Shown here piece by piece: positions 14,273 to 60,165 of a DNA stretch of 64,000 bases (positions are counted from its first letter, which is position 1; every line of letters begins with the position of its first letter). This stretch comes from a virus. The translations under genes and the position numbers were made by a program. Location: IMG/VR virus record IMGVR_UViG_3300033145_000681, positions 4,355 to 68,354 of that record; one strand, given 5' to 3'. The notes beneath the pieces were generated by a model. That model was not told where the DNA came from. It was given only the letters and a program-made list of their open reading frames with translations, and ran no database searches.

Positions 14273-14622
14273 CTCTCTTTGAGGATTATCCCGAGGTAGC
14301 GAACAGGACATGCGAGGATTGCAGGAAGCAGGTATATGACAAGCATGGAAACATCATCTATCGTCCTGACGGGACGCCGGAGCCCAGACCGACTCCTCCG
14401 GTATGTACCCAATGCGCGAAGAAGCGTCCCGGGCTTGCTGATCTCTCCTTTCGGAATTTCCAGGTCTACAAGAAGTATGTTACGTGCAAGACTCTCAGCT
14501 GCCTTCCCCGGCCTGGGGGCCTCGAAAATCAGGATCAGGAACTCGCTCGGAAGTTTGAATACCTTGCCATGTTCGATCGTCAAAGGGAGATCGCTATGCG
14601 TTCTGCAGGGGTTGGATTTTAA
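14251..14622 (+). CDS. tail assembly chaperone -1 frameshift extension (gpT-like)
   Basis: A AAA AAC at 14251-14257; -1 frame open about 120 codons (KLIGGVALFEDYPEVANRTCEDC...LPRPGGLENQD...SAGVGF) to TAA 14620-14622. Confidence 0.85.
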   Translation, partial: KKLIGGVALFEDYPEVANRTCEDCRKQVYDKHGNIIYRPDGTPEPRPTPPVCTQCAKKRPGLADLSFRNFQVYKKYVTCKTLSCLPRPGGLENQDQELARKFEYLAMFDRQREIAMRSAGVGF

Positions 14623-14637
14623 TTGCACGGTGCAATT
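14621..14637. promoter_or_regulatory. 17-bp palindrome copy 1 (candidate ParB site)
   Basis: AATTGCACgGTGCAATT overlapping a TAA stop, just before the tape measure gene. Confidence 0.85.
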
Positions 14638-14651
14638 GCCTGGAGTAAGTA

Positions 14652-16664
14652 ATGGCTGACCGCGAAGTAAATGTATGGATACGGATCAGAGACGGCATGA
14701 CCAAGGCCGTCAGGAAGATCGCCAGGCAGTTTCCTCGGCTTGCTCGGGTCATCAAGCGAACGGTAGCGATTGCGCGGCGAGCGTGGAGATCCCTGGGGAC
14801 GATGATCGGCTTTGTGGGCCGGCAGATCCGGCGCGTCATGATCGCGGGGATAGCCTTCACCACGTTCATGGCTCAGAAATTCGTGCGAGCGGTGATCGAT
14901 GCCGGTGGGGAGGCGGAACGCTTCGGCCTGCAGATGGTCAAGGCGTTCAGCAATGTAATCTCGGGCGCCAAGGAAGCCATGAAATGGGTACGGGAATTCG
15001 CGGCTCGTACCCCCTTCTTTACCCAGGAGGTGGTACGCTCATTCATCATCCTGAAGAATGTCGGCATCAAGAATGTCCGGGATGTAGTAACCGCTGCCGG
15101 CGATGCAGCCTTCATGATGGGCAGATCGATCGAGGATGTATCTACGGCATTCATCTCCCTGATAGCCAGGGTATGGCGGCGCCTGGGTATCCACATCGAT
15201 CGAAGCGGGAAGAAGGCGGTCATCTCCGCAGCCGGCATCCGGAAGGAAGTAGAGAACAATCTCGACGCGGTACGGAAGTCGCTCCTGGAAGTACTCATAT
15301 TCCGGTTCGGCGGCGCGATGAAGACGGCGGAGAAAACCTGGCAGGGCATGGTCGCGCTCTTCTGGTCTGAATGGTGGGAGTTCAAGGTCAAGATTTCCCG
15401 CGCCGGCATATTCGATTTCTTCAAAGCCGGTCTGAGCCTGGTGCTCAAATGGATCAAGAAGGTCAAATCCGAAGGGAAGCTCGAGGAATGGGCATCTGAT
15501 ATAAGCCAGCAGATGACCGACCTTACCGTTACGGTAGCGATACTCGGATTCGAATTCGCCAAGTGGGGAACGACTGTACTCCGAACGGGGATACAGATGG
15601 CCCTACTTTCCAGTCACGCTGCGAAGCTCGCGCTGCATCTTTCTAGGGTTGGTACCATAGCGAACGAGCCATTCCTTGAGAAGCAGCGGCTGGAAGATCT
15701 CGAGTTCATCACGGAGAATATCGCGCTTCTGACTGAGGCGCTGAACGATATCCCGTCCATGCAAGGGCTGGATTTCGACGCTTCGAATTGGGCGAAGACC
15801 ATCCAGAAGGTTCGGGATGAGATGGTAAACGTCAATTCCGAGATGGGCAATTTCGGCGATAAGAATGCCCGGGCAGTAAAGGAAGTCCAGTCGATCGACG
15901 ATGCTCTGAAGACTCAGGTGCAGACCATCAAGAGCATGCTCGGATTGACGGAGATACAGCGGCAGAACTTCCGGGAGATGTTCAGCGTCATCAAGAACAT
16001 CTCGAAGGAAGAGTTCCTCCGTAGTGAGTTGCTCCAGAATTTCGTTGCCAACAACAAGATTCTCCAGCAGATGAGGCCGGATCTGATAGACGCATTTCAC
16101 GAGGAGCAAATAGCTCTCCTGGACATGAACCGGACAGAGAAGGATCGGATACGGACGAATCTGGGGCTGAAGACTGAGCTGGAAAATATGCGGGAAGAAG
16201 CCCAGCAGATCCGGGAGCGGGAGAAGGAAATCAATGACGCGGCACGTACCCGGCTGCAGATCTACAAGGATATGAATTCGGAGCTGATCGCCCAGGAACA
16301 TGCGATGGCGAGAATCGCGGGGATCTTCGGCAAGGACGTAGGCGGCTTATTCACTCCCGAAGAAAGAGCTGCGGAGGTTCGGCCGGAAGACCGGGTGGCA
16401 GCCAGGCGCGGAATCGATGCGCTTCTCAATGCCGGCGTTCCGAGATTCCAGCAGCCGGTAATCGAGATCAAGAACAAGTTCGAGATCAATACCGAAGTGA
16501 AGGCCCAGGCATCAGAGATCGCGCGGGAGGTAAGTGATTCCCTGCAGGCGAACATCTCAAAGCTCATCTCTACGATGCTCGAAGAGAGTAGCCGGAAAAC
16601 AATGGAGGCACGGCGTCGACTCCGGGAAGGAGAGACGGCGGTGACCCAGGCGGAAGGACCATAG
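14652..16664 (+). CDS. tape measure protein
   Basis: 670 aa helical; REFAARTPF..EVVRSF, AAGDAA, FGGAM..TWQG tape-measure motifs. Confidence 0.9.
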   Translation: MADREVNVWIRIRDGMTKAVRKIARQFPRLARVIKRTVAIARRAWRSLGTMIGFVGRQIRRVMIAGIAFTTFMAQKFVRAVIDAGGEAERFGLQMVKAFSNVISGAKEAMKWVREFAARTPFFTQEVVRSFIILKNVGIKNVRDVVTAAGDAAFMMGRSIEDVSTAFISLIARVWRRLGIHIDRSGKKAVISAAGIRKEVENNLDAVRKSLLEVLIFRFGGAMKTAEKTWQGMVALFWSEWWEFKVKISRAGIFDFFKAGLSLVLKWIKKVKSEGKLEEWASDISQQMTDLTVTVAILGFEFAKWGTTVLRTGIQMALLSSHAAKLALHLSRVGTIANEPFLEKQRLEDLEFITENIALLTEALNDIPSMQGLDFDASNWAKTIQKVRDEMVNVNSEMGNFGDKNARAVKEVQSIDDALKTQVQTIKSMLGLTEIQRQNFREMFSVIKNISKEEFLRSELLQNFVANNKILQQMRPDLIDAFHEEQIALLDMNRTEKDRIRTNLGLKTELENMREEAQQIREREKEINDAARTRLQIYKDMNSELIAQEHAMARIAGIFGKDVGGLFTPEERAAEVRPEDRVAARRGIDALLNAGVPRFQQPVIEIKNKFEINTEVKAQASEIAREVSDSLQANISKLISTMLEESSRKTMEARRRLREGETAVTQAEGP

Positions 16665-16665
16665 A

Positions 16666-17880
16666 ATGGCACTCCAATTAAGAGCGCTTACGGGAGCAAG
16701 CACATACAGCCACGATCCGCAGCCGGACATCAAGATCGCCCGGACACCGATCATGGACGAGGATGGCGGGAAGGCGATCGGATACAAGGAAACGTGGACG
16801 ATCGAGGGGACGCTGGTAGGCTCTGGCATCGCGGACATCTCTGGGCAGATCGTAGATCTGGAAGCGGCATATGCATCGCCGACAAGTCTCCGTCTATACG
16901 ATACCGTCTTGGCAGCGAATCGCCGATCCCTGGTAGGCGCATCGGCAAGGGATGGAATCGTCATCACTGGCCCGAGCTATCCCCAGGGGAACAAGGCTGA
17001 ATACGCTTCGAAGCGTCGGTACAACATTACGGGATACGGTGATTTCTATGATGGGAGTCAATTCGGCGGCGATCCTCAGATCCTCTGGTACGAAGAGACA
17101 ACGGATTACTCCTATGACCAGCACGGGAAGTATACGCGCACAATCAGCGGCCGGCTCCGGACGAAGGATGGCGTATCGGCATCCGGGAAGTTCGCATCGA
17201 TTACTCCGGCGATCGTAGCCGGCACGAATCGGATCAGATATAACCGGCGATCGAATACGGATGATGACGAGCTGACATTCTCATTCATGGATGTCGAGTA
17301 CTGGATACCCTGGCCGGTGGGTGTAACGGGAGGCCAGGCGATCGCATCGAGGACCCTGGGCGCATATGGTCAGCTGAAGATATCGGTACACGGACAATTC
17401 ACCGGAGCCGGTGCGTTCGCGGCAGCGGAAGCAAACAAGCTGACGCTCCCGCAGTACCTGACAATCCAGGAGAGCTGGGACATCAATGCGTATGACGGAT
17501 CGGTATCGTTCCGGTTCGACTACGTTGATCTCGTAACTTCCGCGCTGGACCTGATCGCCTTCAATGAGACTACGACGATGGAATTCTCTTCGCAGGATTT
17601 CGTAATTCTTGAGGCGCTCGATGGCGCGATCCCGGAGCGGCAGCAGACGGTGGTCACGCCGGCCCGAGCCAGGCAGTCAGGATCGGCCGTTGCGCTTTCA
17701 GCATTCTGGGCTTTCCCGGCGCCGCTATGGGGAACGGTACCGCTGAAGCCTCCGAAGGTGCAATCGAAGAGCGGTCCTGATTTGATGCCGAATGGTGGGT
17801 TCTCAAATTACCGAACGTCATGGAGTTACGACTTTGAATTCGCTACAAATCCGACATTTCACGATCCGAATACTACTTAG
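16666..17880 (+). CDS. distal tail/baseplate protein
   Basis: Beta-rich, directly after tape measure. Confidence 0.6.
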   Translation: MALQLRALTGASTYSHDPQPDIKIARTPIMDEDGGKAIGYKETWTIEGTLVGSGIADISGQIVDLEAAYASPTSLRLYDTVLAANRRSLVGASARDGIVITGPSYPQGNKAEYASKRRYNITGYGDFYDGSQFGGDPQILWYEETTDYSYDQHGKYTRTISGRLRTKDGVSASGKFASITPAIVAGTNRIRYNRRSNTDDDELTFSFMDVEYWIPWPVGVTGGQAIASRTLGAYGQLKISVHGQFTGAGAFAAAEANKLTLPQYLTIQESWDINAYDGSVSFRFDYVDLVTSALDLIAFNETTTMEFSSQDFVILEALDGAIPERQQTVVTPARARQSGSAVALSAFWAFPAPLWGTVPLKPPKVQSKSGPDLMPNGGFSNYRTSWSYDFEFATNPTFHDPNTT

Positions 17881-18027
17881 CGTATTAATGTGTTGGATGT
17901 ATGTGTACCAGTAGAGCACGTACAACAGATGTCCCGTGATACTGGTATATGGTGTACAGTACCTTGTTACCTGTTAGTACAGTAACATGGGTATAGGTTT
18001 CTAAGAGACGGGCTCCGGAGCTTTTTT

Positions 18028-20334
18028 ATGGGCATTGCTAGTTCTTATGCAGGGATCGGGATTGAAGCAGGGAGCGGCGCGAACCTCACCCTTCAGCGCG
18101 GGATCTCTCCGGGTACCGTCCAGATTACTCTGAAAGCGAATACCGTTCTGGCAAACGTTCCAGACTCCGGCGATCTGATCATCTCGGATGGATCCACATC
18201 TATTACGATGGAGATGTGGGTAGATGGAGATATCCAGAGGAAGCGGAGTAGCGCTGGTGATCTGATGACGGTAACGCTGAAGGACCGGCGCTGGAAATGG
18301 AAGTATGGGTATTACAGCGGCAGTCACAATCAGCCGGACAAGGAAGGCAATCCGGTAGATGAGAAGACAGCGCTGTCCATCTTTCAGGATCTCCGGGACA
18401 AGATAGGGAATGCCGGGCCCGATGAGACGGCGTTGACATTCGACGTATCGGCGGTGCCGGCGAACAGGTACCCTGCAGTAGATTGGGATCTGGTCAATCC
18501 CGTCCAGGCAATGCAGGAGCTGTGCGAAGTACTCGGCCTGGCAATCATGCTGGAGACGGATGATGTAGCATACGTCCGAGCACTCGGTGCCGGCGCCGCA
18601 CTCCCTGCCGGCAGCTTCGATGAGGATGTCACGACCATCGCAACCCCGGAGCTTCCCGCGACGATTCTCATCCGCGGCAGCCGGAAGGTGTACGAGGAGG
18701 ATCTCGTTGTCTTCGAGGCGGTCGGGATGGATACCGATTCGAACAACAGCGCCATCAAGGCGATTGCTGATTTGTCATACGCTCCTACGGCGCCGGCTAC
18801 CTGGCTGGATTATCTGAGAGAGGATTTTCGGCGCCTTACCGATCCGGAGGAGAAGAAGCTCGCCAAGAAATGCATCTACAAATGGTATCGATGGAATCCG
18901 GTAGGCGGGGATGCATATCGAGATCTGGTACTGCCCTGGATGAACATGCGAGCGAGGCCGTCCGAGATCGATGGTGATGACGAACGTGCAGAGCCGACGC
19001 TGCGGGTATCGTTTGTTGAGAAAGATCCGAAGGCCATCAGATTCATAGACCATATTCTGAAGGAGATTACTGACGGCTGGACGCTCGATACTGAGAAGGG
19101 CATCATCAAATTCAACGAAGCGAAATTCATGCGCGGGAATTCGGATCTCTACTTCATCGATTATACGACGGTAGTGAATCCGAGCATTAAGCTGACGATC
19201 GCTTACGAGCAGAAGACCGGTACCGGCTTCTCGGATTTCTACACGTATTCGTTCAATCCTACCTGGCCGGATGGGAAGGTAGCGAACTGCGGGATACATC
19301 CTGAGAACATGGCGGAGCTGGTAGCGTACTACAGGAACGATCCGCTGGGCCCCGGGATTACTCCGTACAACGTTTCCGAGCTGGATGATTACAGCGCCCT
19401 GATCGCGCCGTTGATTCAGAAGAAGTTCTGGGACGGCCTAACCGGCTCCGCGCGAACGTATCTCGGCATGAAAAACATTTCCCCAGACGGCGCTATCTCG
19501 TCGATTACCTGGCGCATCTCACGGGCCGGAGTAAAGACTGAGGTTCAGCGTGGCAGAGACGATCCTCCGGTGCACATCCCCACGTACAAGCAGCTCCGAA
19601 ATAAGTCCCGGATGACCCGGGACGATTCGGATAACACAGCAAAATCGAGGGATGATGAACGTCGCCGGAGGGAGACGCGCGGGGGCGGCTCTGAATTCAA
19701 AGCCCAGGGTGTAGCCGTAGATCCCGCAAACATCGGAAAAGGCCGTGTAGCGATCAAGAACACTCATGCGACGAATGCCCTGGCTGGCGGCATGGCGCAG
19801 CGTACGGGCGATGTGGAGCCCACTACGGGGGCGATAGAGGTTACCAGGCCATCAGTGGACGATTCTGAGAACGTAGTCATCCTCGAGACGGAGGTTCCTG
19901 CTGGCGAGTACGGCATCGCCTCCGAATCATCGAGCAGCTATATCGCGCATACCGGGGCCGGGCCGGTGGTAGGGGACACGCTCGGATCGAAGACGGATCA
20001 GTGGGAAGCGGAGGTGTCCGGCAACGGTTCGCATCTTGTCGGCTCGGTAGACGATGACGGGAATGCTCTCGGCGTATCGGTAGGCGGGGGCGGGGGCGGC
20101 GCTGATTTCTGCCAGATCGTAGATGTCGGTGGTACTCAGGTGCTCAAGAAGTTCAAGCCTTCGGACGGTACCCTTACCGATTTCAAGAAAGACATCACGG
20201 AAGTGTACGAGGCGTACAGCAACAAGACGCTGGATTTGGCGAATTACCCGGATGATACCTTCCTCGTGGTAATCCAGGATGGCAGCGGGGAGTACTTCGC
20301 GCATCCGTTCGCGCAATACAAAGAGTACAGCTGA
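18028..20334 (+). CDS. baseplate hub/tail tip protein
   Basis: VTLKDRRWKW, AMQELCEVLG hub-like N-terminus; position. Confidence 0.6.
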   Translation: MGIASSYAGIGIEAGSGANLTLQRGISPGTVQITLKANTVLANVPDSGDLIISDGSTSITMEMWVDGDIQRKRSSAGDLMTVTLKDRRWKWKYGYYSGSHNQPDKEGNPVDEKTALSIFQDLRDKIGNAGPDETALTFDVSAVPANRYPAVDWDLVNPVQAMQELCEVLGLAIMLETDDVAYVRALGAGAALPAGSFDEDVTTIATPELPATILIRGSRKVYEEDLVVFEAVGMDTDSNNSAIKAIADLSYAPTAPATWLDYLREDFRRLTDPEEKKLAKKCIYKWYRWNPVGGDAYRDLVLPWMNMRARPSEIDGDDERAEPTLRVSFVEKDPKAIRFIDHILKEITDGWTLDTEKGIIKFNEAKFMRGNSDLYFIDYTTVVNPSIKLTIAYEQKTGTGFSDFYTYSFNPTWPDGKVANCGIHPENMAELVAYYRNDPLGPGITPYNVSELDDYSALIAPLIQKKFWDGLTGSARTYLGMKNISPDGAISSITWRISRAGVKTEVQRGRDDPPVHIPTYKQLRNKSRMTRDDSDNTAKSRDDERRRRETRGGGSEFKAQGVAVDPANIGKGRVAIKNTHATNALAGGMAQRTGDVEPTTGAIEVTRPSVDDSENVVILETEVPAGEYGIASESSSSYIAHTGAGPVVGDTLGSKTDQWEAEVSGNGSHLVGSVDDDGNALGVSVGGGGGGADFCQIVDVGGTQVLKKFKPSDGTLTDFKKDITEVYEAYSNKTLDLANYPDDTFLVVIQDGSGEYFAHPFAQYKEYS

Positions 20335-21458
20335 TGTCCTGGTCGATAGGGCCATGCCCCACACTGTTCGGATCTCTCAGGAATCTTGATGCGATGGGGA
20401 TTGTTATTGCAGAGATCGTGCAGGGATTAAAAGAACGGGATTCACATGCAAGAGCGAATGGCTCATGGGGTGGAGGTCCTCCCTTCAATTGGTCCGGTGC
20501 TGGTAGTGATGATGTCAGAGACATAACCGTCCCGACGATAGCATCCACGGATTACGATCGTCTTGATATTACGTTCGGAAAGGCCGGCTCGGAATTCGAT
20601 GTAACGGATTTGCGGCTGGTACGCAAGTGGTTTGACGAAGGGGGGCCGTGGGGATTTGCAACGCCTGATTATAAGACCGGCTGGGGCGATGCGGCGAATC
20701 CGCGGTGGGGCTCGCTGTCTGATTTTCTGACGTATGCACTCGGGTATCCTGCCTGGAAAGCAGACGCATGGACAGATCGTGGCGATGTGTCTACGAGAGC
20801 GATAGAGGAGCTTCGGCTATGCCTTGAAGCTCTGGAGTACGCACAGACCAGCCATGCGATAGGTGGATCGTTTGACGGTTATGGTTATGATTCTTTCGTC
20901 GGGACAGGAGCTACTCCGACGCTGGCGTTCGATGATTGGGATGCGAACAAAGTACTGATCCAGACGCTTACAAACTCACAGTCGGGATCGTACATGCGGT
21001 GGAACGATCTGGGGGCAAATTACGATTGCCGGAGTTTTCTGAGCGGTGCCCATCCGTCGCTGAAACGGACTTCACACACAATGCCGTTATCTCGTTCTCC
21101 GAAATTGGCATTCTCTCTTCCCTGCCGTTCGCTATCGTGGCTCGATGGTCCGTGGGATGTTGAGGTGTATATTTCAGAGTTGGTGTACCCGGCTGGGTCT
21201 GCGATGTATAACTGGGGTGGCTGGTCGCTGGGTGCTTCCGATGTTGCCGCTGGTGGGGATGGTACTGAATGGAAGGGATTGACATACGAGTGGATCGGTG
21301 GAGGGCCGCGAACGGTTTACTTTCAATTCCGCGGGTCTGATGTGCTCCCGGCGTCCCCAGCTATACCGATGCCAGCGACGCCATATTTACCACGAGCATT
21401 TGTCGACCAGACGTGGGAGATCTGGGAATACGGCGCGTACAATTACGGGACGCCATAA
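20334..21458 (+). CDS. putative minor tail/receptor-binding protein
   Basis: Trp/Gly-rich, TGATG-coupled, last gene of the tail block. Confidence 0.5.
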   Translation: MSWSIGPCPTLFGSLRNLDAMGIVIAEIVQGLKERDSHARANGSWGGGPPFNWSGAGSDDVRDITVPTIASTDYDRLDITFGKAGSEFDVTDLRLVRKWFDEGGPWGFATPDYKTGWGDAANPRWGSLSDFLTYALGYPAWKADAWTDRGDVSTRAIEELRLCLEALEYAQTSHAIGGSFDGYGYDSFVGTGATPTLAFDDWDANKVLIQTLTNSQSGSYMRWNDLGANYDCRSFLSGAHPSLKRTSHTMPLSRSPKLAFSLPCRSLSWLDGPWDVEVYISELVYPAGSAMYNWGGWSLGASDVAAGGDGTEWKGLTYEWIGGGPRTVYFQFRGSDVLPASPAIPMPATPYLPRAFVDQTWEIWEYGAYNYGTP

Positions 21459-21479
21459 GCTCCGGATATAATCTCCCGT

Positions 21480-23174
21480 ATGAAATCATCTCTGATCGTA
21501 GACGAGGATGGCACCTTCCGCGTTCACATGAAGCGGGAGACTGCCAAGAGCATCCCGTGGATCCGCGCGGCGAAGGACGGTTGGTTTACCGGATTCTGGA
21601 TCAACATCCCGCGGCTGGTACAGCATGTCGAGCTTACCCCGGCGCCGGACAGCGTAAGGATACTCAAGCAGCTCCGGGAAGCCAAGCGCCAGGCGATCGA
21701 GATGAAGGATGACGAATCGGATCAGGTATCCCATCTCTTCCTGGAGGGGAAGAAGCCGAAGCCGTTCCAGCACCAGGCGATCAATTTCTCCCTGCATCAG
21801 AAGAATGTACTCATTGCCGACGATGTAGGGCTGGGGAAGACCTTCGAAGCGATGGGGATCATGCTCCGCGCCTTCGAGCTTGATGAGGTAGATATCGCCA
21901 TCATCCTGTGCCCTGGCTCGATCAAGTATCAGTGGAAGCAGGAGATCGAGATGGCGAATGCATACCTCCCGGATTTCGAGAGCCAGGTTGAGATAGTAGA
22001 TGGCGATCGCTCATCCCGGATGGACAGCTATGAATTGCACCGTGCAATTACCATCCTGCACTACCAGTGCCTCATCCGGGACTATGAAGAGATCTGGGAG
22101 ATGATTGAAGGCAAGCGGATCCTGGTAATCGCTGACGAGATTACGGCGAAGGGGGGCTGCAAGAATCGAACTACCAAGACCGCGAAGATATTCAAGAAGC
22201 TGTTCAAGAAGGCCGTATACAAAATCGCGCTTACCGCTACGCCGATCGAGAATCGGCTGGAGGATCTGTACTCAGTATTCGAGTGGATCGATTCCAGGCC
22301 CTTCGGGCCCGTAGGATGGTTCCGGGAGAAGTACTGCCGAATGATCGACATCCCTCTCAAGAATCGCGGGTTCACCATCAAGAAGGTAATCGGGTACAAG
22401 AATCTCCAGGATGCGGAGAATCGGATTGCCGATCGGTACATCCGGAGGACCGCGGCGGACGTCGGTGTACAGATGCCGAAGGTCGTAACGATGGTGCGCC
22501 GCGTAGAGATGATCCCGGAAGCTCGAAAGATATACGATGTGATGTGCGCCCAGATCCGCGCGGAGAAGGCGGCCGGGGCAGGGAGCATGTTCGGGAAGAT
22601 GATCCCGCTTCGCAGATGCTGTGCGGCGCCGTGCCTGGTAGGCGGGGAGGGAGAGGATTCCGGGAAGATCGCCGATCTCCTAGAAATGATGGAGGGGGAG
22701 CTTGCCGGCGAATCTATCATCATCGTTACGCAATGGCGCGAGAAGTGGATGGACATCCTCACGCGCCGGCTGAAGAAATGGAATCCGGTAGTAATGCATG
22801 GAGAGGTCGATCGCCGGCAGCGGGAAGCAGCCAGGCGGCGCTTCCAGGATGGGGAGTGCAAGGTAATGATCATGACCGAGGTAGGCGAGAGGGGGATGAA
22901 TCTGCAGACGGGGAGCGTACTCGTAAACCTGGATCTTCCCTTCAATCCCGCGAACATCCATCAACGCGCCGGCAGGATCTATCGCATGGGATCCCCGCAC
23001 GATCGGATCAGGGTAGTCGCTTTCGTCGCTCGGGATACGGTAGAGGAGCGGGTACTGGATATACTATCGCAGAAGGGCGATCTATTCGCCGAGGTTTTCT
23101 CTGAGGATGGGGTAGCGAAGCTGGTATCCCGGATGAGTAAGCTGACGGACGATCAATGGAGGAAGATGCTATGA
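21480..23174 (+). CDS. SNF2-family helicase/ATPase
   Basis: LIADDVGLGKT, IADE, LTATPIENRLEDL, GMNLQ, DLPFNP, QRAGRIYRMG. Confidence 0.95.
   Translation: MKSSLIVDEDGTFRVHMKRETAKSIPWIRAAKDGWFTGFWINIPRLVQHVELTPAPDSVRILKQLREAKRQAIEMKDDESDQVSHLFLEGKKPKPFQHQAINFSLHQKNVLIADDVGLGKTFEAMGIMLRAFELDEVDIAIILCPGSIKYQWKQEIEMANAYLPDFESQVEIVDGDRSSRMDSYELHRAITILHYQCLIRDYEEIWEMIEGKRILVIADEITAKGGCKNRTTKTAKIFKKLFKKAVYKIALTATPIENRLEDLYSVFEWIDSRPFGPVGWFREKYCRMIDIPLKNRGFTIKKVIGYKNLQDAENRIADRYIRRTAADVGVQMPKVVTMVRRVEMIPEARKIYDVMCAQIRAEKAAGAGSMFGKMIPLRRCCAAPCLVGGEGEDSGKIADLLEMMEGELAGESIIIVTQWREKWMDILTRRLKKWNPVVMHGEVDRRQREAARRRFQDGECKVMIMTEVGERGMNLQTGSVLVNLDLPFNPANIHQRAGRIYRMGSPHDRIRVVAFVARDTVEERVLDILSQKGDLFAEVFSEDGVAKLVSRMSKLTDDQWRKML
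22033..22049. promoter_or_regulatory. 17-bp palindrome copy 2 (inside helicase CDS)
   Basis: AATTGCACcGTGCAATT. Confidence 0.85.
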
Positions 23175-23512
23175 GCGAGCCTTGCGTAAATGCGAAGAGT
23201 GCGGCGGTAGAGGTTGAAAGCAGTGACGGTATCCAGCCAGTCGCAATCACGTTTGTGATCTCTGGGCAGAGCGTCGATGCTGTCCAGAAAGTCTCTACCG
23301 CGATAGAGGCATCTTGTCTGGGTGCGATGCGCGGTATGGGGAAGGAAGTCGATGTTGAGACGGACTTCGAAGAGGAATTCGAAAAAGAATTGTTCATCTG
23401 CCGTCATTGTGGCAAAGCGGAAGAGGAGTATTTGTGCGAGCATTTCCCGGAGATCACGGTAGTGCAGAGAGATCTCGGGTATTTTCACAAGGAATATCGG
23501 TTGATGGGATGA
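23171..23512 (+). CDS. hypothetical protein with CxxC
   Basis: ATGA overlap with helicase stop. Confidence 0.55.
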   Translation: MSEPCVNAKSAAVEVESSDGIQPVAITFVISGQSVDAVQKVSTAIEASCLGAMRGMGKEVDVETDFEEEFEKELFICRHCGKAEEEYLCEHFPEITVVQRDLGYFHKEYRLMG

Positions 23513-23519
23513 GGGGCTG

Positions 23520-23864
23520 ATGAGAAAAGAGACGGAAGTGCAGGCTGTCCGGATCGAACAGACGTGCGAGAACTGTAAAGATGGCATGATGGAGATTCCC
23601 CGTGAAAGATCTACGATGGCACCTCCCGGGGAGCATCTTCACGAATGCACGAAATGCAAGCATACCGAACATTTTACAGCGATCTATCCCCGTATTGAAT
23701 ATCGGGAGAAAGATGAAGAGCCAGGGCGCGTTTCTGATTTGCCGACTCAGCGCTGCAAGGCTACGAGCCATCATGGTTATCGTTGCGCATTGGCTCTCGA
23801 TCATCTTGCTCGGGATCACCAGGCATTGAACGACAGCGGATCGGTAGTTCTTTGGCCGAAGTAG
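23520..23864 (+). CDS. zinc-ribbon hypothetical protein
   Basis: CENC..CTKC; SD GAGGGG. Confidence 0.6.
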   Translation: MRKETEVQAVRIEQTCENCKDGMMEIPRERSTMAPPGEHLHECTKCKHTEHFTAIYPRIEYREKDEEPGRVSDLPTQRCKATSHHGYRCALALDHLARDHQALNDSGSVVLWPK

Positions 23865-23875
23865 GAGAAGAAGGA

Positions 23876-24184
23876 ATGAACACCTATCCCGACAACTGGA
23901 AGCAGATTGCATTCTACGTCAAGACAACATGGGGATGGATCTGCGAGCGGTGCGGCCACCGACACGAACCGCCCACCGGGTACTGCCTCACGGTCCATCA
24001 TCTCGTTCCAGACAAGAGTCTCTGCGAGCTTTGGAATCTCGCATGCCTCTGCCAGCGATGTCATCTTTCCATCCAGGCTCGGGTGAATATGTTCCAGGAG
24101 ATGCTTCCCGGGATGGTGGTGTCGGAATGGTTCATCCCGCATCTGGTAGGATTCAGGGAGTGGCAGGAAAGGACGGCGGCATAA
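23876..24184 (+). CDS. HNH endonuclease
   Basis: YPDNW..CERCG..LTVHHL..NLACLCQRCHL. Confidence 0.85.
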   Translation: MNTYPDNWKQIAFYVKTTWGWICERCGHRHEPPTGYCLTVHHLVPDKSLCELWNLACLCQRCHLSIQARVNMFQEMLPGMVVSEWFIPHLVGFREWQERTAA

Positions 24185-24552
24185 TGGGTCATGAAGACGA
24201 TGGTGGAGACTTGGTCGGCAGTAAGGGATGGTATGACGAGTTCCATCGCAAACTGGAACCCGAGGGGTTTGCGTTGTGGTGGGACAAAGTATTCGGGTAT
24301 GAACCGCAGCCAGAGAAAGGGATCTACGGATTCCAGTGTTATTACGAGCGCCGATCTTCTGCACTTGCTGCGTGGATTATGGCTTCCGAGCTGGATACTG
24401 CTAGGGATTTGATCTCGGCGCTCAAGAGCGGCGATTGCTGGTGCCCTATGGGGATCGGAGATCCCAGGTACTCAGACCATACGGATACGTGCAAGAAGAT
24501 CCAGGAAAAGATCGATGCTTCGCCGCGGGATTTCTCGCTGGAGGATAGCTGA
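24184..24552 (+). CDS. hypothetical protein
   Basis: TAATG coupling. Confidence 0.55.
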   Translation: MGHEDDGGDLVGSKGWYDEFHRKLEPEGFALWWDKVFGYEPQPEKGIYGFQCYYERRSSALAAWIMASELDTARDLISALKSGDCWCPMGIGDPRYSDHTDTCKKIQEKIDASPRDFSLEDS

Positions 24553-24905
24553 TGAACATCGACAAAAAGACGGTATCCTTCGAATTGTCAAAATCGATCA
24601 TGGCCGCGGGAGCGAAGCAGGGAGATGCGGAGTGCGTCTATGTGGTGGATGTTTCCGGGAACATACTGCTTCGGTATCGTGTTCACGGATGCCCTAGCGA
24701 TCGGCACATCTGTGATGCTTTCGATCATGACGAGCTTATAGAGCGCCTTCGGGAGTACGGGACGATTACTGAGCATTACGATACGGTGACAAACGTAGTG
24801 ATTATCAGGTTCGATTTTCCTGGTTGCGACAGTCCCCCATACGCTCCGCTGATCGAAGTGTTGGGTGATCTGTACTGGAAGTGCTTGTGCAGGAAGAAGA
24901 CATGA
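24552..24905 (+). CDS. hypothetical protein
   Basis: TGATG coupling, SD GGAGG. Confidence 0.55.
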   Translation: MNIDKKTVSFELSKSIMAAGAKQGDAECVYVVDVSGNILLRYRVHGCPSDRHICDAFDHDELIERLREYGTITEHYDTVTNVVIIRFDFPGCDSPPYAPLIEVLGDLYWKCLCRKKT

Positions 24906-25183: not shown

Positions 25184-25193
25184 GAGGGATGAC

Positions 25194-28849: not shown

Positions 28850-28963
28850 GCGTCAAGCGCCTTCTCCCTGCCATAGTATAGGGGTGTTCGAATAACCCCA
28901 CAATTCTAGCCTCTAAGGCCGAATACTCGCATCAAAAAAGATTGCATATAACAGTACAAGAAA

Positions 28964-32280: not shown

Positions 32281-32301
32281 TTAATTGCACCGTGCAATTA
32301 A
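32281..32301. promoter_or_regulatory. palindrome copy 3, extended to 21 bp, upstream of parB
   Basis: TTAATTGCACcGTGCAATTAA, 58 bp before the parB ATG; TACAAT at 32319-32324. Confidence 0.9.
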
Positions 32302-32359: not shown

Positions 32360-33388
32360 ATGGTTGAAGAGATTGACAAGATCTTAGAGGATTTCGAGGA
32401 TGGGGACAGCGCCCCCGCAGAGCCCGGCAAGAAGCCGGAGGAGGCCGAGAAGAAAGCGGCCGGGAAGGCGCCGGCAGCTGGGAAGGGTACAAAGGCGGCG
32501 AAGAGAACGAAGGTATCAAAGCCGGGGAAGGGTGGCAAGGGATCGAAGCCGGCAGCGGAGCCGAAGGGAGTCCCGGAGCCGACGATCGATCTGCGGCTCG
32601 AGAACGTTCCCTGCACGGCAATCAAGACAAAGGCGCACCAGACGAATACCAGGGAGAAGCTCACGGATGCGGATCTCGAAGACATTCTCGAATCAGCCGG
32701 CACGGCCGGCATCAGGAATCCGATCAGGTTGATCGATGATAAGGATGGATCGTTCACGCTGGTAACCGGAAAGCGGCGTCTGGCTGCCGCGCGGAAGCTG
32801 GCGCTCGAGGAGATCCCTGCTCTGGTCAGCTCTGCCGATGCGGTAGACGTCGAGGTGGATAGTGCGATCGAGAATCTGGTGCGCCGGGATTACGGGCCGA
32901 TCGAGGAGGCGAAGGCATACCATGTGCTGATCAAGAAGCACAAGGTAGATCAGAAGCGGCTGGCGAAGATGGTAGGGCGCAGCGAATCTCACATTTCCCG
33001 GAAGCTCTCGCTCCTGGATGCTCCTGCCAAGACGCAGAAGAAGCTGGAGGCGGGGAAGGTTACGGAGAAGCAGGCGCGGAGCAAGGCTTCGAAGAGCGCT
33101 CCTGGTGCGAAGCGGGGCCCGAAGATGAGCATCATGCCGATACCCCCGGGGGATCTCCCCTATGGCGTATCGCTTTCCGTCCGGGAAGGTTTCGATGTCG
33201 AGTACTCCTCCGCGCTGGGGCTGCCCAGGCAGACCATTACGCTTTCGGTAAAGGTCGATATCAATACCGCGAAGAAGGGACTCGCCAGGTCTGTAGGGAA
33301 GGCCGCGAAGCTGGCGGCGATCAAGATGATCAACGAGATCGTCCCGAAGAATGTAGACTCCGCATACAAGGCCATCAAGGGAGTCTGA
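32360..33388 (+). CDS. parB: ParB/RepB/Spo0J-family protein
   Basis: GIRNPI, LVTGKRRLAA (arginine patch), IENLVRRDYGPIEEA, HTH QKRLAKMVGRSESHISRKLSLL. Confidence 0.92.
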   Translation: MVEEIDKILEDFEDGDSAPAEPGKKPEEAEKKAAGKAPAAGKGTKAAKRTKVSKPGKGGKGSKPAAEPKGVPEPTIDLRLENVPCTAIKTKAHQTNTREKLTDADLEDILESAGTAGIRNPIRLIDDKDGSFTLVTGKRRLAAARKLALEEIPALVSSADAVDVEVDSAIENLVRRDYGPIEEAKAYHVLIKKHKVDQKRLAKMVGRSESHISRKLSLLDAPAKTQKKLEAGKVTEKQARSKASKSAPGAKRGPKMSIMPIPPGDLPYGVSLSVREGFDVEYSSALGLPRQTITLSVKVDINTAKKGLARSVGKAAKLAAIKMINEIVPKNVDSAYKAIKGV

Positions 33389-42355: not shown

Positions 42356-42655
42356 ATGTTCGAATGCCTGATGGTGAAGGATGATTCCGTAGCAACGCTG
42401 ATATTCGATTACGATGAAGGATTCATTGCGGAGCTGAAGCAGGCGGTCCCGAGCCATGATCGCGGATGGAATCCGGAGAAGAAGGAATGGACGGTCAGCG
42501 CCAGGCACGTAGAGGACGTCCTGGCCATGGCGGTAGACTACTTCGGCCGGGAAACGTACAAGGTAGTTACCGATGACGATGCCGGCAAGACGGTCAGAAC
42601 GAACATGGTAACAGGGCATAAGCAATCTCAGGGGCATCTATTTAGTGGGGCGTAA
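42356..42655 (+). CDS. hypothetical protein (HARP-like FDY..LK..RGWNPEKKEW motif)
   Basis: SD GGAGGAG; motif recognition only. Confidence 0.6.
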   Translation: MFECLMVKDDSVATLIFDYDEGFIAELKQAVPSHDRGWNPEKKEWTVSARHVEDVLAMAVDYFGRETYKVVTDDDAGKTVRTNMVTGHKQSQGHLFSGA

Positions 42656-42670
42656 TTGCACGGTGCAATT
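42654..42670. promoter_or_regulatory. 17-bp palindrome copy 4
   Basis: AATTGCACgGTGCAATT overlapping TAA stop, 11 bp before radical SAM ATG. Confidence 0.85.
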
Positions 42671-50676: not shown

Positions 50677-51822
50677 ATGGCGGTAGCTCGGCATCAGGAC
50701 GCGCGGATAAGGAAGTACGCCAGGCGGGTATGGGATACCGCGGAGCAGGCTACCCGTCTGGAGATGATCACCGACCTTACCATCCCCTTCCGTAATTCCA
50801 CGAAGGTATACATCAAGTCTCAGATGATGGAGTCCTATCGAATGGCCCGGGCCCGGGCTCGGATGACGGTAGAGAGAGCGCATCGAGCGCGGGTACAGAT
50901 CCAGGAGATGGACCCCTTTTCTAATTGCACGGTGCAATTGCCCGACATAACCCCTGAGTTCCTAGAGCGTTTCGATGGCGCCGTGGAGCTGGATGAGATC
51001 TCATTCGTATCCAAGATCCAGGAGCTGGAAGCTGACGAGCTTGCCTACCATCAGATCGTAAAGGAGTATGGCGCCTGGGCAGAGCTGCAGGGTAATGAGA
51101 TGTGGCAGCAGAAGGTCAAGACCGCGAAGGGCACGATGGTGCGCGGCATTGAGAATGGCTGGGGGCTCAATCCTGTAGGGGAGTATACCAAGGCCGGTAA
51201 ATCGGTATCGGCTTTCGAGGCAACGGGCGGGGTTGGGGGCTCCGCCAATGTCCTGAAGGGATATAGCTACACGCAGCTTACCCCGGGGATACTGGACGAG
51301 CTGCAGAAGGATCTCGCCAGCTTCGGGTATAGCGGTCATCAGCTTGAGCGCCTGGCGCGGACGGAATATACCCGGGCCATGAATGCGGGGCTGCTGTCCA
51401 TCTACCAGGAAGACGATATGATTGTCGGGTACGAATGGTCCGCGATCCTGGATGCCCGGACATGCGTAGAGTGCGCCATGATGGACGGGGTACAGATGGA
51501 TCGAGGAGATCCCCGGCTCGGGGATTACACACCTCCGCTGCATCCTCATTGCCGATGTGAGATCCTACCGATATTCGCCTGGGAGCAGCGAGAGGCGAAC
51601 ATGGATACGCAGCGTACCGTTACGCTGTACGACAAGGAGGGGAGAGACTTCACGGTCGACTACATCCCGAATCGGATCAATCCGGACTTCCTGAAGACCA
51701 TCCGGCCGGCGAACGATTCGGCGGGTATCAAGCGGCAGCTGATTACCAAGAAGAAGGCGGAGAAGCTCCGGAACAATTTCGTCCCGACGATGCTGGTACA
51801 CGATTCCCCGGCGCTGAATTGA
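50677..51822 (+). CDS. minor head protein (SPP1 gp7/Mu gpF family)
   Basis: RLARTEYTRAMN, WSAILDARTCVEC..DG, PPLHPHCRC. Confidence 0.92.
   Translation: MAVARHQDARIRKYARRVWDTAEQATRLEMITDLTIPFRNSTKVYIKSQMMESYRMARARARMTVERAHRARVQIQEMDPFSNCTVQLPDITPEFLERFDGAVELDEISFVSKIQELEADELAYHQIVKEYGAWAELQGNEMWQQKVKTAKGTMVRGIENGWGLNPVGEYTKAGKSVSAFEATGGVGGSANVLKGYSYTQLTPGILDELQKDLASFGYSGHQLERLARTEYTRAMNAGLLSIYQEDDMIVGYEWSAILDARTCVECAMMDGVQMDRGDPRLGDYTPPLHPHCRCEILPIFAWEQREANMDTQRTVTLYDKEGRDFTVDYIPNRINPDFLKTIRPANDSAGIKRQLITKKKAEKLRNNFVPTMLVHDSPALN
50923..50939. promoter_or_regulatory. 17-bp palindrome copy 5 (inside minor head CDS)
   Basis: AATTGCACgGTGCAATT. Confidence 0.85.
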
Positions 51823-58995: not shown

Positions 58996-59608
58996 GGTGA
59001 AGAAATGTCTGGTACTCAGTCCCCATTACGATGATGCGGAGCTGGGGTGCGGCGGGACGATTGCCAAGCTCATCCGGAACGGCGCCCATGTCCGGGTAAT
59101 GGTATTCGCAGAGCAGCGCCGGCTGGACAAGAGCATGCCGGAAAGGCTTGAGGAGGAGATGAACGCCTCTGCCAAGATCCTCGGCTTCGATGGGATAATG
59201 TTCAGGCTCGAAGGCCGGCGCCTGGGAGAATCCCGGCAGGCCATTCTTGATGACATGATCCAGGAGGGGAAAGACTTCCAACCGGATCTGGTGCTCGCGC
59301 CTTCGCTGATGCAGACGCACCAGGATCATCAGGTCGTATCCCATGAAGCCTTCCGGGCATTCAAGTATACGTCCCTGCTGGGATATGACATGCCGTGGAA
59401 CTATCTGGATTCCGGCCGGCTGAGTACGTTCGTGGAGATCTCGAAGCAGCACCTTGCCAAGAAGGCGGCAGCCGTTCAATGCTACGCCTCCCAGATGCCG
59501 CGGCCGTACTTCGATCGAGAGGTAATCGAATCCCTGGCCCGGGCCCGGGGGCTGCAGTGCGGCAGGAAATATGCCGAAGCCTTCGAGACGTACCGCTGGT
59601 TTCTCTGA
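58988..59608 (+). CDS. PIG-L/LmbE-family deacetylase
   Basis: SPHYDDAELGCGGTI, HQDH, YASQ, YAEAFE. Confidence 0.93.
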   Translation: MHEVKKCLVLSPHYDDAELGCGGTIAKLIRNGAHVRVMVFAEQRRLDKSMPERLEEEMNASAKILGFDGIMFRLEGRRLGESRQAILDDMIQEGKDFQPDLVLAPSLMQTHQDHQVVSHEAFRAFKYTSLLGYDMPWNYLDSGRLSTFVEISKQHLAKKAAAVQCYASQMPRPYFDREVIESLARARGLQCGRKYAEAFETYRWFL

Positions 59609-60150
59609 TGGATGCCTCCGAGTATCTGACCATCAAACAGAAGCTGATCGATTCAGGATACTCCGACGAGATAGACTGGAGCGAGAACGTAGCCGCTCCG
59701 GAGACACCCATGCAGTTCTTCATCCAGTACGGCTGGGTGGTAGTCAACAGCGGCATGAAGAATCAGGTCGCCGAAAAGATCTGGGATCGGATCACGGAGG
59801 CGCTCGCGGAGGGGAAGTCATCCTCTGCGGTATTCGGGCACAAGGGGAAGACAGAGGCGATCGATTACGTCTTCAATCATCGGGATACCATCTTCCGGGA
59901 ATACCAGGAGGCGTCGGACAAGCTGGCGTACTTCGAAAGCCTGCCCTGGATCGGGAAGATCACGAAATGGCATCTCGCCAAGAACGTAGGGATGGATGTC
60001 TGCAAGCCCGATCGGCATCTGGTACGGATAGCCACGAGGTACAATACAGATCCGGACAAGCTCTGCAGACGGCTCTCGGAAGAGACGGGGGATAGAATAG
60101 TAACGGTAGATATGGTTTTGTGGAGAGCTGCGAATCTGGGGAGGATCTAA
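59608..60150 (+). CDS. HhH-GPD superfamily DNA glycosylase-like protein
   Basis: LPWIGKIT (HhH), KPDRHLVR, VDMVLW. Confidence 0.6.
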   Translation: MDASEYLTIKQKLIDSGYSDEIDWSENVAAPETPMQFFIQYGWVVVNSGMKNQVAEKIWDRITEALAEGKSSSAVFGHKGKTEAIDYVFNHRDTIFREYQEASDKLAYFESLPWIGKITKWHLAKNVGMDVCKPDRHLVRIATRYNTDPDKLCRRLSEETGDRIVTVDMVLWRAANLGRI

Positions 60151-60165
60151 TTGCACCGTGCAATT
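60149..60165. promoter_or_regulatory. 17-bp palindrome copy 6
   Basis: AATTGCACcGTGCAATT overlapping TAA stop, followed by SD AGGAGG. Confidence 0.85.

What the first reader, a model, noticed from the sequence alone, without database searches (positions are those of the whole stretch)
14621..60165. Orphan phage ParB with six evenly dispersed 17-bp palindromes: candidate KorB/Noc-like genome-wide clamp system
Seen: AATTGCAC(G/C)GTGCAATT occurs exactly at 14621, 22033, 32283, 42654, 50923 and 60149, with gaps of 7412, 10250, 10371, 8269 and 9226 bp. With 16 fixed bases, about 1.5e-5 chance copies are expected per 64 kb. Two copies lie inside coding sequence (helicase, minor head), three overlap TAA stops, and the longest (21 bp) sits just upstream of parB. 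ParB keeps the arginine patch and HTH, and no ParA is recognisable in the window. Known: RK2 KorB binds dispersed odd-length palindromes with a central G/C (TTTAGCSGCTAAA) and silences at long range; phage N15 has dispersed centromere sites; Noc is a ParA-independent paralogue; ParB clamps spread for kilobases. Inference: the phage loads CTP-dependent clamps at regular intervals to coat, segregate, protect or silence the whole genome.
Basis: partly seen in the sequence, partly recalled or inferred. Interest (0 to 1): 0.88.

Follow-up and report, generated by a model that had tools for sequence, protein, structure and literature searches.

The report
Phage ParB with evenly spaced docking palindromes
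An uncultured tailed phage repeats one 17-letter DNA palindrome about every 9 kb, and because the same word sits beside ParB genes on unrelated plasmids and phages it is most likely the docking site of the phage's own partner-less ParB protein.

Summary
AATTGCACSGTGCAATT occurs exactly six times in the window, with no further copy at up to 3 mismatches and none in shuffles. A seventh exact copy lies on the 68,354-bp virus contig outside the window. The spacing is more even than chance.

The ParB link is supported by comparison, not by binding data. Of 194 motif-bearing stretches from three public collections, 8 hold a ParB-fold gene. In six of the seven that carry an HTH, the motif lies within about 300 bp of a parA-parB operon or ParB gene. 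ParB is the only protein family shared across the motif-bearing groups. These ParBs share an S/T-R recognition-helix signature seen in only 2 of 84 general ParB homologues. No ParA is on the contig.

Against this: a distantly related 49-kb phage contig keeps 19 copies, but its only ParB-fold protein is a ParB_N-methyltransferase fusion without that signature. NTP use, clamping and the biological role remain inferred.

This scan has noted orphan ParB plus dispersed palindromes many times on other DNA. KorB and BisD are published precedents on a plasmid and an ICE. I class it as a new variant of a known kind.

The parts
14621..14637 (.). Palindrome copy 1 (central G). It lies in the last codons of ORF 14336-14659 and ends 14 bp before the ATG of the tape-measure gene 14652-16664.
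22033..22049 (.). Palindrome copy 2 (central C), inside the SNF2-family helicase gene 21480-23174. It encodes ELHRAI at residues 185-190, which the C7 homologue does not conserve.
32281..32301 (.). Palindrome copy 3, extended to 21 bp (TT..AA). It starts 5 bp after the sigma-like gene's stop codon, and its 17-bp core ends 60 bp before the parB start codon. A TACAAT box lies downstream of it.
   Evidence: note e1-6200361
32360..33388 (+). parB, 342 aa. It begins with an acidic helix followed by a disordered K/A/P-rich arm of about 60 aa. Then come ParB_N (Box I Q94..R98, Box II GKRRLAAA, Box III ENLVRR) and HTH_ParB with recognition helix SESHISRKLSLL. The C-terminal 90 aa are of uncertain fold.
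42654..42670 (.). Palindrome copy 4 (central G). It overlaps the TAA stop of ORF 42356-42655 and ends 11 bp before the ATG of the radical-SAM gene 42682-43500.
50923..50939 (.). Palindrome copy 5 (central G), in frame inside the Mu-F-like minor head gene 50677-51822 (codons NCTVQL, residues 83-88).
60149..60165 (.). Palindrome copy 6 (central C). It overlaps the TAA stop of ORF 59395-60150 and ends 17 bp before an ATG that is preceded by AGGAGG.

Best explanation
The 17-bp palindromes are the cognate parS-type docking sites of the phage's own ParB, a ParB/Noc-type protein with a variant recognition helix (..ISRKL..) that works without a ParA.

Shown by sequence and comparison: there are seven perfect, evenly spaced sites, one of them just upstream of parB. 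The identical word flanks ParB genes on unrelated replicons. ParB is the only protein family those replicons share. No ParA and no LG-R/K-GL ParA-binding motif is present.

Inferred from what is established for ParB, KorB and BisD: a ParB dimer binds each palindrome. Nucleotide binding (CTP is likely but not predictable from sequence) closes the N-terminal gate, and the clamps slide several kb away from each site. With sites about 7-10 kb apart, this would load ParB over most of the genome.

The purpose is open. I rank the possibilities as follows: (a) long-range control of transcription, or roadblocking at gene junctions, in the KorB/BisD style; (b) compaction or marking of phage DNA; (c) partition of a plasmid-like state using a ParA that was not seen.
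For:: there are seven exact copies and no degenerate ones, with none expected by chance.

the spacing is over-dispersed (P about 6e-4 to 0.014).

of 194 motif-bearing stretches (1.30 Mb in total), 8 hold a ParB-HMM hit at E<=1e-5. Seven of these 8 have an HTH.

in L033, L147, L126 and L103 the motif lies at the edge of a parA-parB operon. In L178 it is 284 bp after parB, and in L154 it is 23 bp before a ParB_N-HTH-methyltransferase gene.

the 6.4-Mb genome G005 has three ParB_N loci and only two motif copies, both directly upstream of one of those loci.

ParB is the only family shared between the motif-bearing groups, apart from three replication and recombination proteins shared with C7.

the recognition helix reads [IV][ST]R.L in the phage's own ParB, P0002, L033, L103, L126, L147, L154 and L178. 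Only 2 of 84 general ParB homologues have it, and those two are the phage ParB and P0002; the rest mostly read [ST]N..RLL.

Box I, II and III residues Q94, R98, G137, R139, R140, E171, N172 and R175 are invariant in the 10-sequence alignment.

the nearest solved structures are the Noc and ParB clamps.

as RNA the hairpin is weak (-6 to -8 kcal/mol, not different from shuffles) and has no T-run, which argues for a DNA-level role.
Against: The phage contig G001:C7 shares SNF2, DnaB and RecA with this phage at about 30% identity. It keeps 19 copies at up to 2 mismatches, but no HTH_ParB was found on its 49 kb. Its only ParB-fold protein is a ParB_N-N6_N4-methyltransferase fusion whose linker lacks the S/T-R signature. 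That contig is cut within this gene, so the absence is not proven.

Several multi-copy occurrences have no ParB on the DNA held. These are the Lachnospiraceae contigs C24, C30 and C35, the L023 tandem array (its 3.8-Mb MAG has no ParB_N hit), L008, L100 and L181.

Box II has K in place of the usual E and lacks the third R (GKRRLAAA).

No Pfam C-terminal dimerisation domain was detected, and the AlphaFold2 model of the C-terminus is of low confidence.

Only one close homologue exists (P0002, 49% identity, on a 996-bp contig), so covariation among true relatives could not be tested.

There are no binding data of any kind.
Confidence: 0.62

Rival explanations
1. N15-like partition. The phage persists as a low-copy plasmid prophage, and the dispersed sites are centromeres for ParB working with a ParA encoded in the missing ~12% of the genome or borrowed from the host.
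For: The same motif serves parA-parB cassettes on other contigs. The contig is only 88% complete. N15 SopB uses four IR centromere sites, IR1-4 (PMC7205306, passages read).
Against: No ParA is on the 68 kb held. The N-terminus lacks the LG-R/K-GL ParA-binding motif (motif as given in PMC12704722). No integrase, repressor or plasmid replication gene was found among the roughly 55 ORFs scanned, though many small ORFs were not scanned. Seven evenly spaced sites are more than partition needs.
Confidence: 0.13
2. A different phage DNA-binding protein recognises the palindrome as a dispersed operator set, and its position next to parB is incidental. Candidates are the sigma-like protein 31644-32276 or an unannotated small HTH protein.
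For: C7 keeps the motif without a recognisable HTH-ParB. The site lies between the sigma-like gene and parB. Five of the 7 sites sit at gene junctions close to start codons.
Against: No protein other than ParB is shared among the motif-bearing groups at phmmer E<=1e-4. The sigma-like protein has no homologue on the other contigs. Sigma factors do not read perfect palindromes (established knowledge). The ParB adjacency recurs in about five independent lineages.
Confidence: 0.12
3. The sites address a DNA-modification activity. ParB bound at the palindromes recruits or activates an enzyme, in the way ParB_N-methyltransferase fusions may do in cis. Candidate enzymes are the nearby PAPS-reductase-like protein 29221-30039, the radical-SAM protein 42682-43500, or a methyltransferase.
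For: Two other elements with dispersed copies of this same motif (L154 and C7) encode ParB_N-DNA-methyltransferase fusions, each with a site just upstream of the gene. ParB-methyltransferase fusions are enriched in phages (PMC12704722, section 7 read). A phage ParB-like protein activates a DNA thymine dioxygenase (PMC13229309, abstract only).
Against: The phage ParB is not fused to any enzyme. The ParB in PMC13229309 lacks an obvious DNA-binding domain, according to its abstract. No N6_N4 DNA methyltransferase was found among the ORFs scanned here; the two methyltransferases seen belong to the generic Methyltransf_11/23/25 class. The link to neighbouring enzymes rests on proximity alone.
Confidence: 0.08
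4. The element acts at the RNA level. The palindrome forms a hairpin in the polycistronic mRNA at gene junctions and serves as a processing, stabilising or terminator signal.
For: Five of 7 sites lie at junctions 11-87 bp before a start codon, all on the transcribed strand.
Against: The hairpins are weak and no better than shuffles (z from +0.07 to -1.87), and no T-run follows them. All seven copies are identical in sequence rather than showing compensatory change. Two copies lie inside genes. The same word stands outside transcription units, flanking parAB operons, in either central-base orientation.
Confidence: 0.04

Closest known systems
KorB and its OB operators on IncP-1 plasmid RK2 (PMC11790492; abstract and passages read)
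   Same: Both are ParB-family proteins with many copies of one short palindrome dispersed over a mobile replicon. KorB has 12 binding sites, according to a reference title in that paper. KorB is a CTP-dependent sliding clamp that represses at a distance. The odd-length site with a central G/C is recalled from memory, not taken from a call.
   Different: KorB has a ParA partner (IncC) and a clamp-locking partner (KorA). Neither was found here. By sequence this ParB is much nearer Noc/ParB (E 1.5e-20) than KorB (1.1e-6), and the Pfam KorB domain scores below its cut-off. Most sites here are not at recognisable promoters.
BisD-bisS of ICEclc, Pseudomonas putida (PMC12409273; abstract read)
   Same: Both are ParA-independent ParB-like proteins on a mobile element. 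BisD is a CTP clamp that loads at parS-like sites and spreads over tens of kb.
   Different: BisD uses two bisS sites, has an extra activator domain and works with BisC. This is a phage with seven evenly spaced sites and no such domain detected.
Noc and its NBS sites (Bacillus); solved structures 7ng0, 7nfu and 7ol9 are the best PDB sequence matches
   Same: Both are orphan ParB paralogues with many dispersed palindromic sites and no ParA. Noc is the closest solved relative by sequence.
   Different: Noc is chromosomal and acts through a membrane-binding N-terminal helix (recalled). Here the N-terminus is an acidic helix followed by a long K/A/P-rich arm, and the recognition helix differs (ISRKL against IANKL, alignment).
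Canonical ParABS, and N15 SopAB with IR1-4 (PMC7205306 passages; PMC12704722)
   Same: The domain order is the same (ParB_N then HTH), the site is palindromic, and the inner CAC/GTG of the half-sites resembles canonical parS (recalled). The very same 17-mer is used by parA-parB cassettes on other contigs.
   Different: There is no ParA and no LG-R/K-GL motif. The site has 17 bp with a central base pair rather than 16 bp. The sites are spread evenly over the genome rather than clustered.
Phage ParB_N-DNA-methyltransferase fusions (PMC12704722, section 7 read)
   Same: L154 and C7 carry such fusions together with dispersed copies of this same motif, and each has a site directly upstream of the gene.
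   Different: This phage's ParB is not fused to anything. No DNA targets for the fusions are reported in the sections I read.

Membership tests
ParB/Spo0J/Noc family (ParB-CTPase fold plus HTH) | ParB N-terminal domain (PF02195) | tested here: met
   40.7 bits against a cut-off of 26.3, residues 80-173
ParB/Spo0J/Noc family (ParB-CTPase fold plus HTH) | ParB HTH domain (PF17762) | tested here: met
   59.1 bits against a cut-off of 22.6, residues 177-241. Noc and ParB structures match at E about 1e-20.
ParB/Spo0J/Noc family (ParB-CTPase fold plus HTH) | Nucleotide-pocket motifs Box I (QPR), Box II (GERRxRA) and Box III (ENLQR) | tested here: inconclusive
   Q94, R98, G137, R139, R140, E171, N172 and R175 are invariant in alignment A1. 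However, Box I carries a 2-residue insertion (QTNTR) and Box II reads GKRRLAAA. Sequence does not reliably predict NTP specificity (heading of section 9 of PMC12704722, seen in the outline).
ParB/Spo0J/Noc family (ParB-CTPase fold plus HTH) | C-terminal dimerisation domain | tested here: inconclusive
   PF23552 was not detected. The AlphaFold2 model shows strands and a long helix at pLDDT 50-63.
ParB/Spo0J/Noc family (ParB-CTPase fold plus HTH) | CTP binding and hydrolysis, and clamp closure at the cognate site | not testable with these tools
   This needs biochemistry.
ParABS partition system | Adjacent ParA (Walker-type ATPase) | tested here: not met
   PF13614 gave no hit at E<=1. PF01656 gave only 12.9 bits, inside recA. 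The contig is 88% complete.
ParABS partition system | N-terminal ParA-binding motif LG-R/K-GL | tested here: not met
   It is absent from residues 1-80. Canonical ParBs in alignment A1 have GLGRGL. The motif is as stated in PMC12704722.
KorB/OB global regulon | KorB-type DNA-binding domain (PF08535) | tested here: not met
   18.3 bits against a cut-off of 22.3. The KorB structure matches at only E = 1.1e-6.
KorB/OB global regulon | Many dispersed copies of one palindromic operator on the replicon | tested here: met
   Seven exact copies on 68 kb.
KorB/OB global regulon | Operators at or within reach of promoters, plus a KorA-like locking partner | tested here: inconclusive
   A TTGACA-17-TATACT promoter-like site lies about 30 bp downstream of the contig-1148 copy, and a TACAAT box lies downstream of copy 3. 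The consensus scan of 14000-33000 gave no promoter excess (7 found against 12.9 expected) and none at the sites. No KorA homologue was sought.
Noc/NBS nucleoid occlusion | N-terminal amphipathic membrane-targeting helix | not tested
   The N-terminus MVEEIDKILEDFED is predicted helical (residues 3-10) but is acidic. No membrane-binding prediction was run.

The most novel reading that the evidence does not exclude
One odd-length parS class (AATTGCAC-S-GTGCAATT), read by ParBs with an S/T-R recognition helix, is shared across phyla. It is used by plasmid parABS cassettes, by orphan phage ParBs and by phage ParB-methyltransferase fusions.

In phages the sites have been multiplied and spaced evenly so that ParA-independent clamps load over the whole genome. 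This would be a phage 'chromatin' layer that controls transcription, compaction or enzyme access. In the fusion proteins it would carry a methyltransferase along the DNA.
Probability: 0.3. Interest if true: 0.75.

Novelty: new variant of a known kind. Interest (0 to 1): 0.55.

Why it matters
ParB clamps are known from chromosomes, plasmids and one ICE. Orphan ParBs and ParB-enzyme fusions are now known to be common in phages, but in the papers I could search they have no reported DNA targets or role.

This locus offers a defined protein, a defined 17-bp site, a candidate specificity residue, and natural comparators that use the same site with and without ParA. That makes site-stimulated NTPase assays, ChIP-seq and specificity-swap experiments straightforward.

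The even spacing gives a testable prediction about how far a clamp travels. The value is tempered because this scan has already logged the same theme on many other genomes.

Tried and rejected
**Close relatives of the phage.** Megablast of 30000-36000 against GenBank phages found nothing. tblastn with ORF 47627-49114 found nothing. tblastn with ParB found only hits below 36% identity. IMG/VR scans with ParB and with the portal-position ORF found none. As a result the motif-versus-HTH covariation test among true relatives could not be done.

**P0002.** This is the only close ParB homologue (49% identity).

**Motif in IMG/VR.** The scan found 8 contigs. None is related to this phage by tblastn (the tblastx one search returned nothing and was replaced by tblastn).

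**Host-element idea.** The genome scan gave 69 stretches in 596 Gb. That equals my own estimate of about 69 chance matches (2/4^17 per base, assuming uniform composition). No host genome is rich in the motif apart from the contigs discussed. The three Methylophilaceae hits L044, L045 and L053 lie in one conserved coding region, so they reflect inheritance rather than function; the fourth, L078, lies in an unrelated sequence context.

**Cyanophage idea from HIP1 (GCGATCGC).** There are 8 copies against 4.7 expected, and 10 of 100 shuffles reach 8, so I dropped it. No tRNA genes were found.

**Strand bias of the half-site.** TTGCAC outside the sites occurs 0 times against 2.6-4.3 expected, which is not significant.

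**ATPase 40175-40828 as a hidden ParA.** The sequence looks like the C-terminal half of an SbcC/Rad50-type ATPase and has no deviant Walker A. Rejected.

**Homologous intragenic sites.** The SNF2 genes of this phage and of C7 both contain a site, but at non-homologous positions (residue 185 against 252). These are independent acquisitions.

**Complex prediction.** I ran two copies of ParB residues 250-342. The result was no verdict (score 0.01, controls not run). It counts neither for nor against dimerisation.

**Literature.** The motif letters were found only as unrelated primers. No paper describing dispersed ParB sites in a lytic-type phage turned up with the term sets. The supplementary datasets of PMC12704722 may list this protein class.

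Full report
**Observation.** The pattern AATTGCACSGTGCAATT matches six times in the window, at the stated coordinates. There is no additional match at up to three mismatches and none in dinucleotide-preserving shuffles. The window is bases 4355-68354 of a 68,354-bp IMG/VR virus record, linear and estimated 88% complete. That record carries a seventh exact copy at contig position 1148. No degenerate copies at up to two mismatches exist on the contig.

The spacing is more even than random placement. For seven sites on a linear contig, P(minimum gap >= 7412 bp) = 6.5e-4, or 0.014 if the contig is treated as a circle. For the six window sites the gap CV of 0.125 has P = 5e-4.

**Setting.** Nearly all plausible genes are on the + strand. 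Annotated genes include:
- tail tube, tape measure and other tail genes;
- an SNF2 helicase, a DnaC-like loader, DnaB and RecA;
- a split SbcC-like ATPase with phosphoesterases;
- a PAPS-reductase-like gene, a radical-SAM gene, and a sigma-like gene directly before parB;
- a Mu-F-like head gene and glycosyltransferase and methyltransferase genes;
- at the contig start, a methyltransferase and weak decoration and capsid matches. This suggests the record is circularly permuted or broken inside the head module.

No integrase, repressor or ParA was found among the ORFs scanned, but many small ORFs were not scanned. ParA models gave nothing on the whole contig.

**Site positions.** Five of the seven sites sit at gene junctions:
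- Copies 4 and 6 overlap the TAA stop of the upstream ORF.
- Copies 1, 4 and 6 end 14, 11 and 17 bp before a start codon. For copy 6 the AGGAGG-preceded ATG is read from the sequence; the crude ORF table gives a different next start.
- Copy 3 is the 21-bp palindrome, whose 17-bp core ends 60 bp before the parB start codon.
- The contig-1148 copy lies about 30 bp upstream of a TTGACA-17-TATACT promoter-like site.

Two copies are inside genes, and the residues they encode are not conserved in the C7 homologue. As RNA the hairpins are weak, no better than shuffles, and lack a T-run.

**The protein.** ORF 32360-33388 has ParB_N and HTH_ParB above the Pfam cut-offs. The KorB domain scores below its cut-off. 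The best solved-structure matches are Noc and ParB (E about 1e-20), with KorB far behind at 1.1e-6.

The nucleotide-pocket residues Q94, R98, G137, R139, R140, E171, N172 and R175 are invariant in a 10-sequence alignment. Box II reads GKRRLAAA and Box I has a two-residue insertion. The N-terminus is a short acidic helix followed by about 60 residues of disordered K/A/P-rich sequence. It has no LG-R/K-GL ParA-binding motif (motif as given in PMC12704722). The C-terminal 90 residues have no Pfam match and were modelled with low confidence. Only one close homologue exists among 5.8 billion proteins: P0002, at 49% identity, on a 996-bp contig.

That is 194 loci and 1.30 Mb in all. The count of 69 in 596 Gb equals my estimate of chance matches, so most single hits are noise. 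The informative loci are those with several copies or with a telling neighbour.

A ParB HMM built from the homologues hit 8 of the 194 loci at E<=1e-5. One of them, L007, is a ParB_N-only protein 5.7 kb from the site and is probably coincidental. The other seven have an HTH:
- **L033:** two sites lie directly upstream of parA-parB.
- **L147:** sites flank the operon, and two weaker ones lie inside it.
- **L126:** a double site lies just upstream of parA.
- **L103:** a site lies 58 bp after parB.
- **L178:** a site lies 284 bp after parB.
- **L154:** a site lies 23 bp before a ParB_N-HTH-N6_N4-methyltransferase gene, and two further dispersed copies are present.
- **L190:** the site is 3 kb away.

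L126, L147 and L178 are related to one another, so they count as roughly five independent lineages.

In the 6.4-Mb genome that holds L033 there are three ParB_N loci but only two motif copies, both next to one of those loci. An all-against-all phmmer search among the motif-bearing groups found ParB as the only shared family, apart from three replication and recombination proteins shared between this phage and C7.

The recognition helix of the motif-associated ParBs reads [IV][ST]R.L. This holds for the phage ParB, P0002, L033, L103, L126, L147, L154 and L178; L190 has SK. Among 84 general homologues only the phage ParB and P0002 have it, and most others read [ST]N..RLL.

**Evidence against.** Contig C7 of genome G001 is 49.5 kb with 57.7% GC and was binned with a Saccharibacteria MAG. 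It is a phage: it has a terminase, a Pol III alpha subunit, and SNF2, DnaB and RecA at about 30% identity to ours. It carries 19 copies at up to two mismatches, also evenly spaced (P about 0.002) and often just upstream of gene starts.

No HTH_ParB was found on C7. Its only ParB-fold protein is a ParB_N-methyltransferase fusion that runs off the contig end. A site lies about 180 bp upstream of that gene, and its linker lacks the S/T-R signature. So a distant relative keeps the motif without a canonical ParB on the DNA available. Either a ParB lies on the missing part, or the fusion reads the site in another way, or another protein is the binder.

Other multi-copy cases without a ParB on the held DNA:
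- Lachnospiraceae contigs, where the motif is the centre of a palindrome of about 60 bp with GTGCAGGT iterons.
- A six-unit, 42-bp tandem array in a Verrucomicrobia MAG that has no ParB_N hit at all.
- Fragments L008, L100 and L181. L181 is a conjugative-plasmid fragment with relaxase, ArdC and KfrB domains and two sites upstream of that gene block.

Some of these may be chance matches multiplied by an unrelated repeat.

**Mechanism.** The best-supported step is that the palindromes are the cognate sites of the phage ParB. The rest follows from what is established for the family. ParB, KorB and BisD bind CTP, close into clamps at their sites and slide for kb. These statements rest on PMC11790492 (abstract and passages), PMC12409273 (abstract) and PMC12704722 (introduction passages).

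Seven sites 7-10 kb apart would then load clamps over most of the genome. The exception would be the 17.8-kb gap between contig positions 1148 and 18975. Whether the nucleotide is CTP cannot be read from sequence (PMC12704722; heading of section 9 seen in the outline).

The purpose is open. The junction positions and the two promoter-proximal sites fit KorB/BisD-style transcriptional control or roadblocking. The K/A/P-rich arm fits compaction. The fusion proteins on L154 and C7, together with the ParB-activated dioxygenase of PMC13229309 (abstract only), keep a DNA-modification role alive. Partition with an unseen ParA cannot be excluded at 88% completeness.

**Comparison and novelty.** By membership this is a ParB/Noc-type protein. 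It is not a member of a ParABS system as far as the contig shows, and it is not of the KorB lineage. It works most like KorB-OB, BisD-bisS or Noc-NBS.

Orphan ParBs and ParB-methyltransferase fusions in phages are published as a survey (PMC12704722, sections 5 and 7 read). With the searches I found no paper assigning dispersed DNA sites to a phage orphan ParB, nor this 17-mer. Supplements were closed. This scan has already logged the theme many times on other DNA: 108 notes in at least 97 genomes hold the search words, and 41 notes hold those, several of them followed up. So it is a recurrent, still unpublished pattern rather than a singular find.

What this case adds is a site shared word for word between parABS cassettes, an orphan phage ParB and ParB-methyltransferase fusions, together with a candidate specificity residue.

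**Verdict.** I class it as a new variant of a known kind, with interest 0.55.

Noticed in passing
G001:C7 (loci L204-L206), whole 49,474-bp contig: This is a phage contig (terminase, Pol III alpha, SNF2, DnaB, RecA) binned in a Saccharibacteria MAG at 57.7% GC. It holds 19 evenly spaced copies of the same palindrome, many just upstream of gene starts. A ParB_N-N6_N4-methyltransferase fusion is cut by the contig end at 3-965(-). A masked N-run lies at about 1180-1280.
   Followed up: partly
L154:1485-3062(-), with sites at L154 3085, 7241 and 9652; also L153, L099, L100, L187 and L008: L154 encodes a ParB_N-HTH-DNA-methyltransferase fusion (HTH helix TVSRNL) with the motif 23 bp upstream. In this set of contigs the motif is extended to the 23-bp palindrome ACT-motif-AGT. 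These are candidate docking sites for a ParB-methyltransferase.
   Followed up: partly
G003 contigs C24, C30, C35 (L207-L210), L151, L180, and Lachnospiraceae G11 loci L020, L043, L062: In Lachnospiraceae the 17-mer is the centre of a repeated palindrome of about 60 bp (ggggacaggccca-motif-tgggcctgtcccc), flanked by GTGCAGGT iterons. No ParB-fold gene lies on these contigs. The nature of the element is unknown.
   Followed up: partly
L023 7076-7302 (G004:C116): This is a tandem array of six motif copies with a 42-bp period, resembling F sopC in layout (recalled). It lies in a Verrucomicrobia MAG with no ParB_N hit. The neighbouring genes look chromosomal (AraC-like, thioredoxin-like).
   Followed up: partly
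L181 5025 and 5288: Two motif copies 263 bp apart lie upstream of a conjugative-plasmid gene block (relaxase/DUF3363; ArdC-metallopeptidase-KfrB protein). The layout is like KorB operators in a transfer region.
   Followed up: no
contig G000:C1:1165-1275 (locus L211), outside the window: Just after the seventh motif copy come a near-consensus promoter (TTGACA-17-TATACT) and then a GC-rich hairpin with a T-run. Both lie before the decoration-like and capsid-like genes at 1252-2996. This could be a short transcript or an attenuator.
   Followed up: no
window 36264-37370 and 40175-40828: An SbcC/Rad50-type ATPase appears to be split. The N-terminal Walker-A half and a separate C-terminal half lie about 2.8 kb apart, with two phosphoesterase genes (37716-38252, 38554-39564) between them.
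   Followed up: no
window 29221-30039: A PAPS-reductase-like gene lies 2.3 kb upstream of parB. ParB-like and PAPS-reductase-like pairs (IbrB/IbrA, DndB/DndC) are recalled from the literature as DNA-modification or regulatory pairs. This was not tested here.
   Followed up: no
L039 5042-5080 and L079 1660-1735 (Brevundimonas): The full motif is accompanied by extra direct GGTGCAATT half-site repeats close by. This may be a centromere-like cluster.
   Followed up: no
L025 552 and L074 4284 (one Ignavibacteria MAG): The motif is embedded in a longer repeated element (..gaattatgcaaaagagaa-motif-..gacaattttta..) present on two contigs.
   Followed up: no
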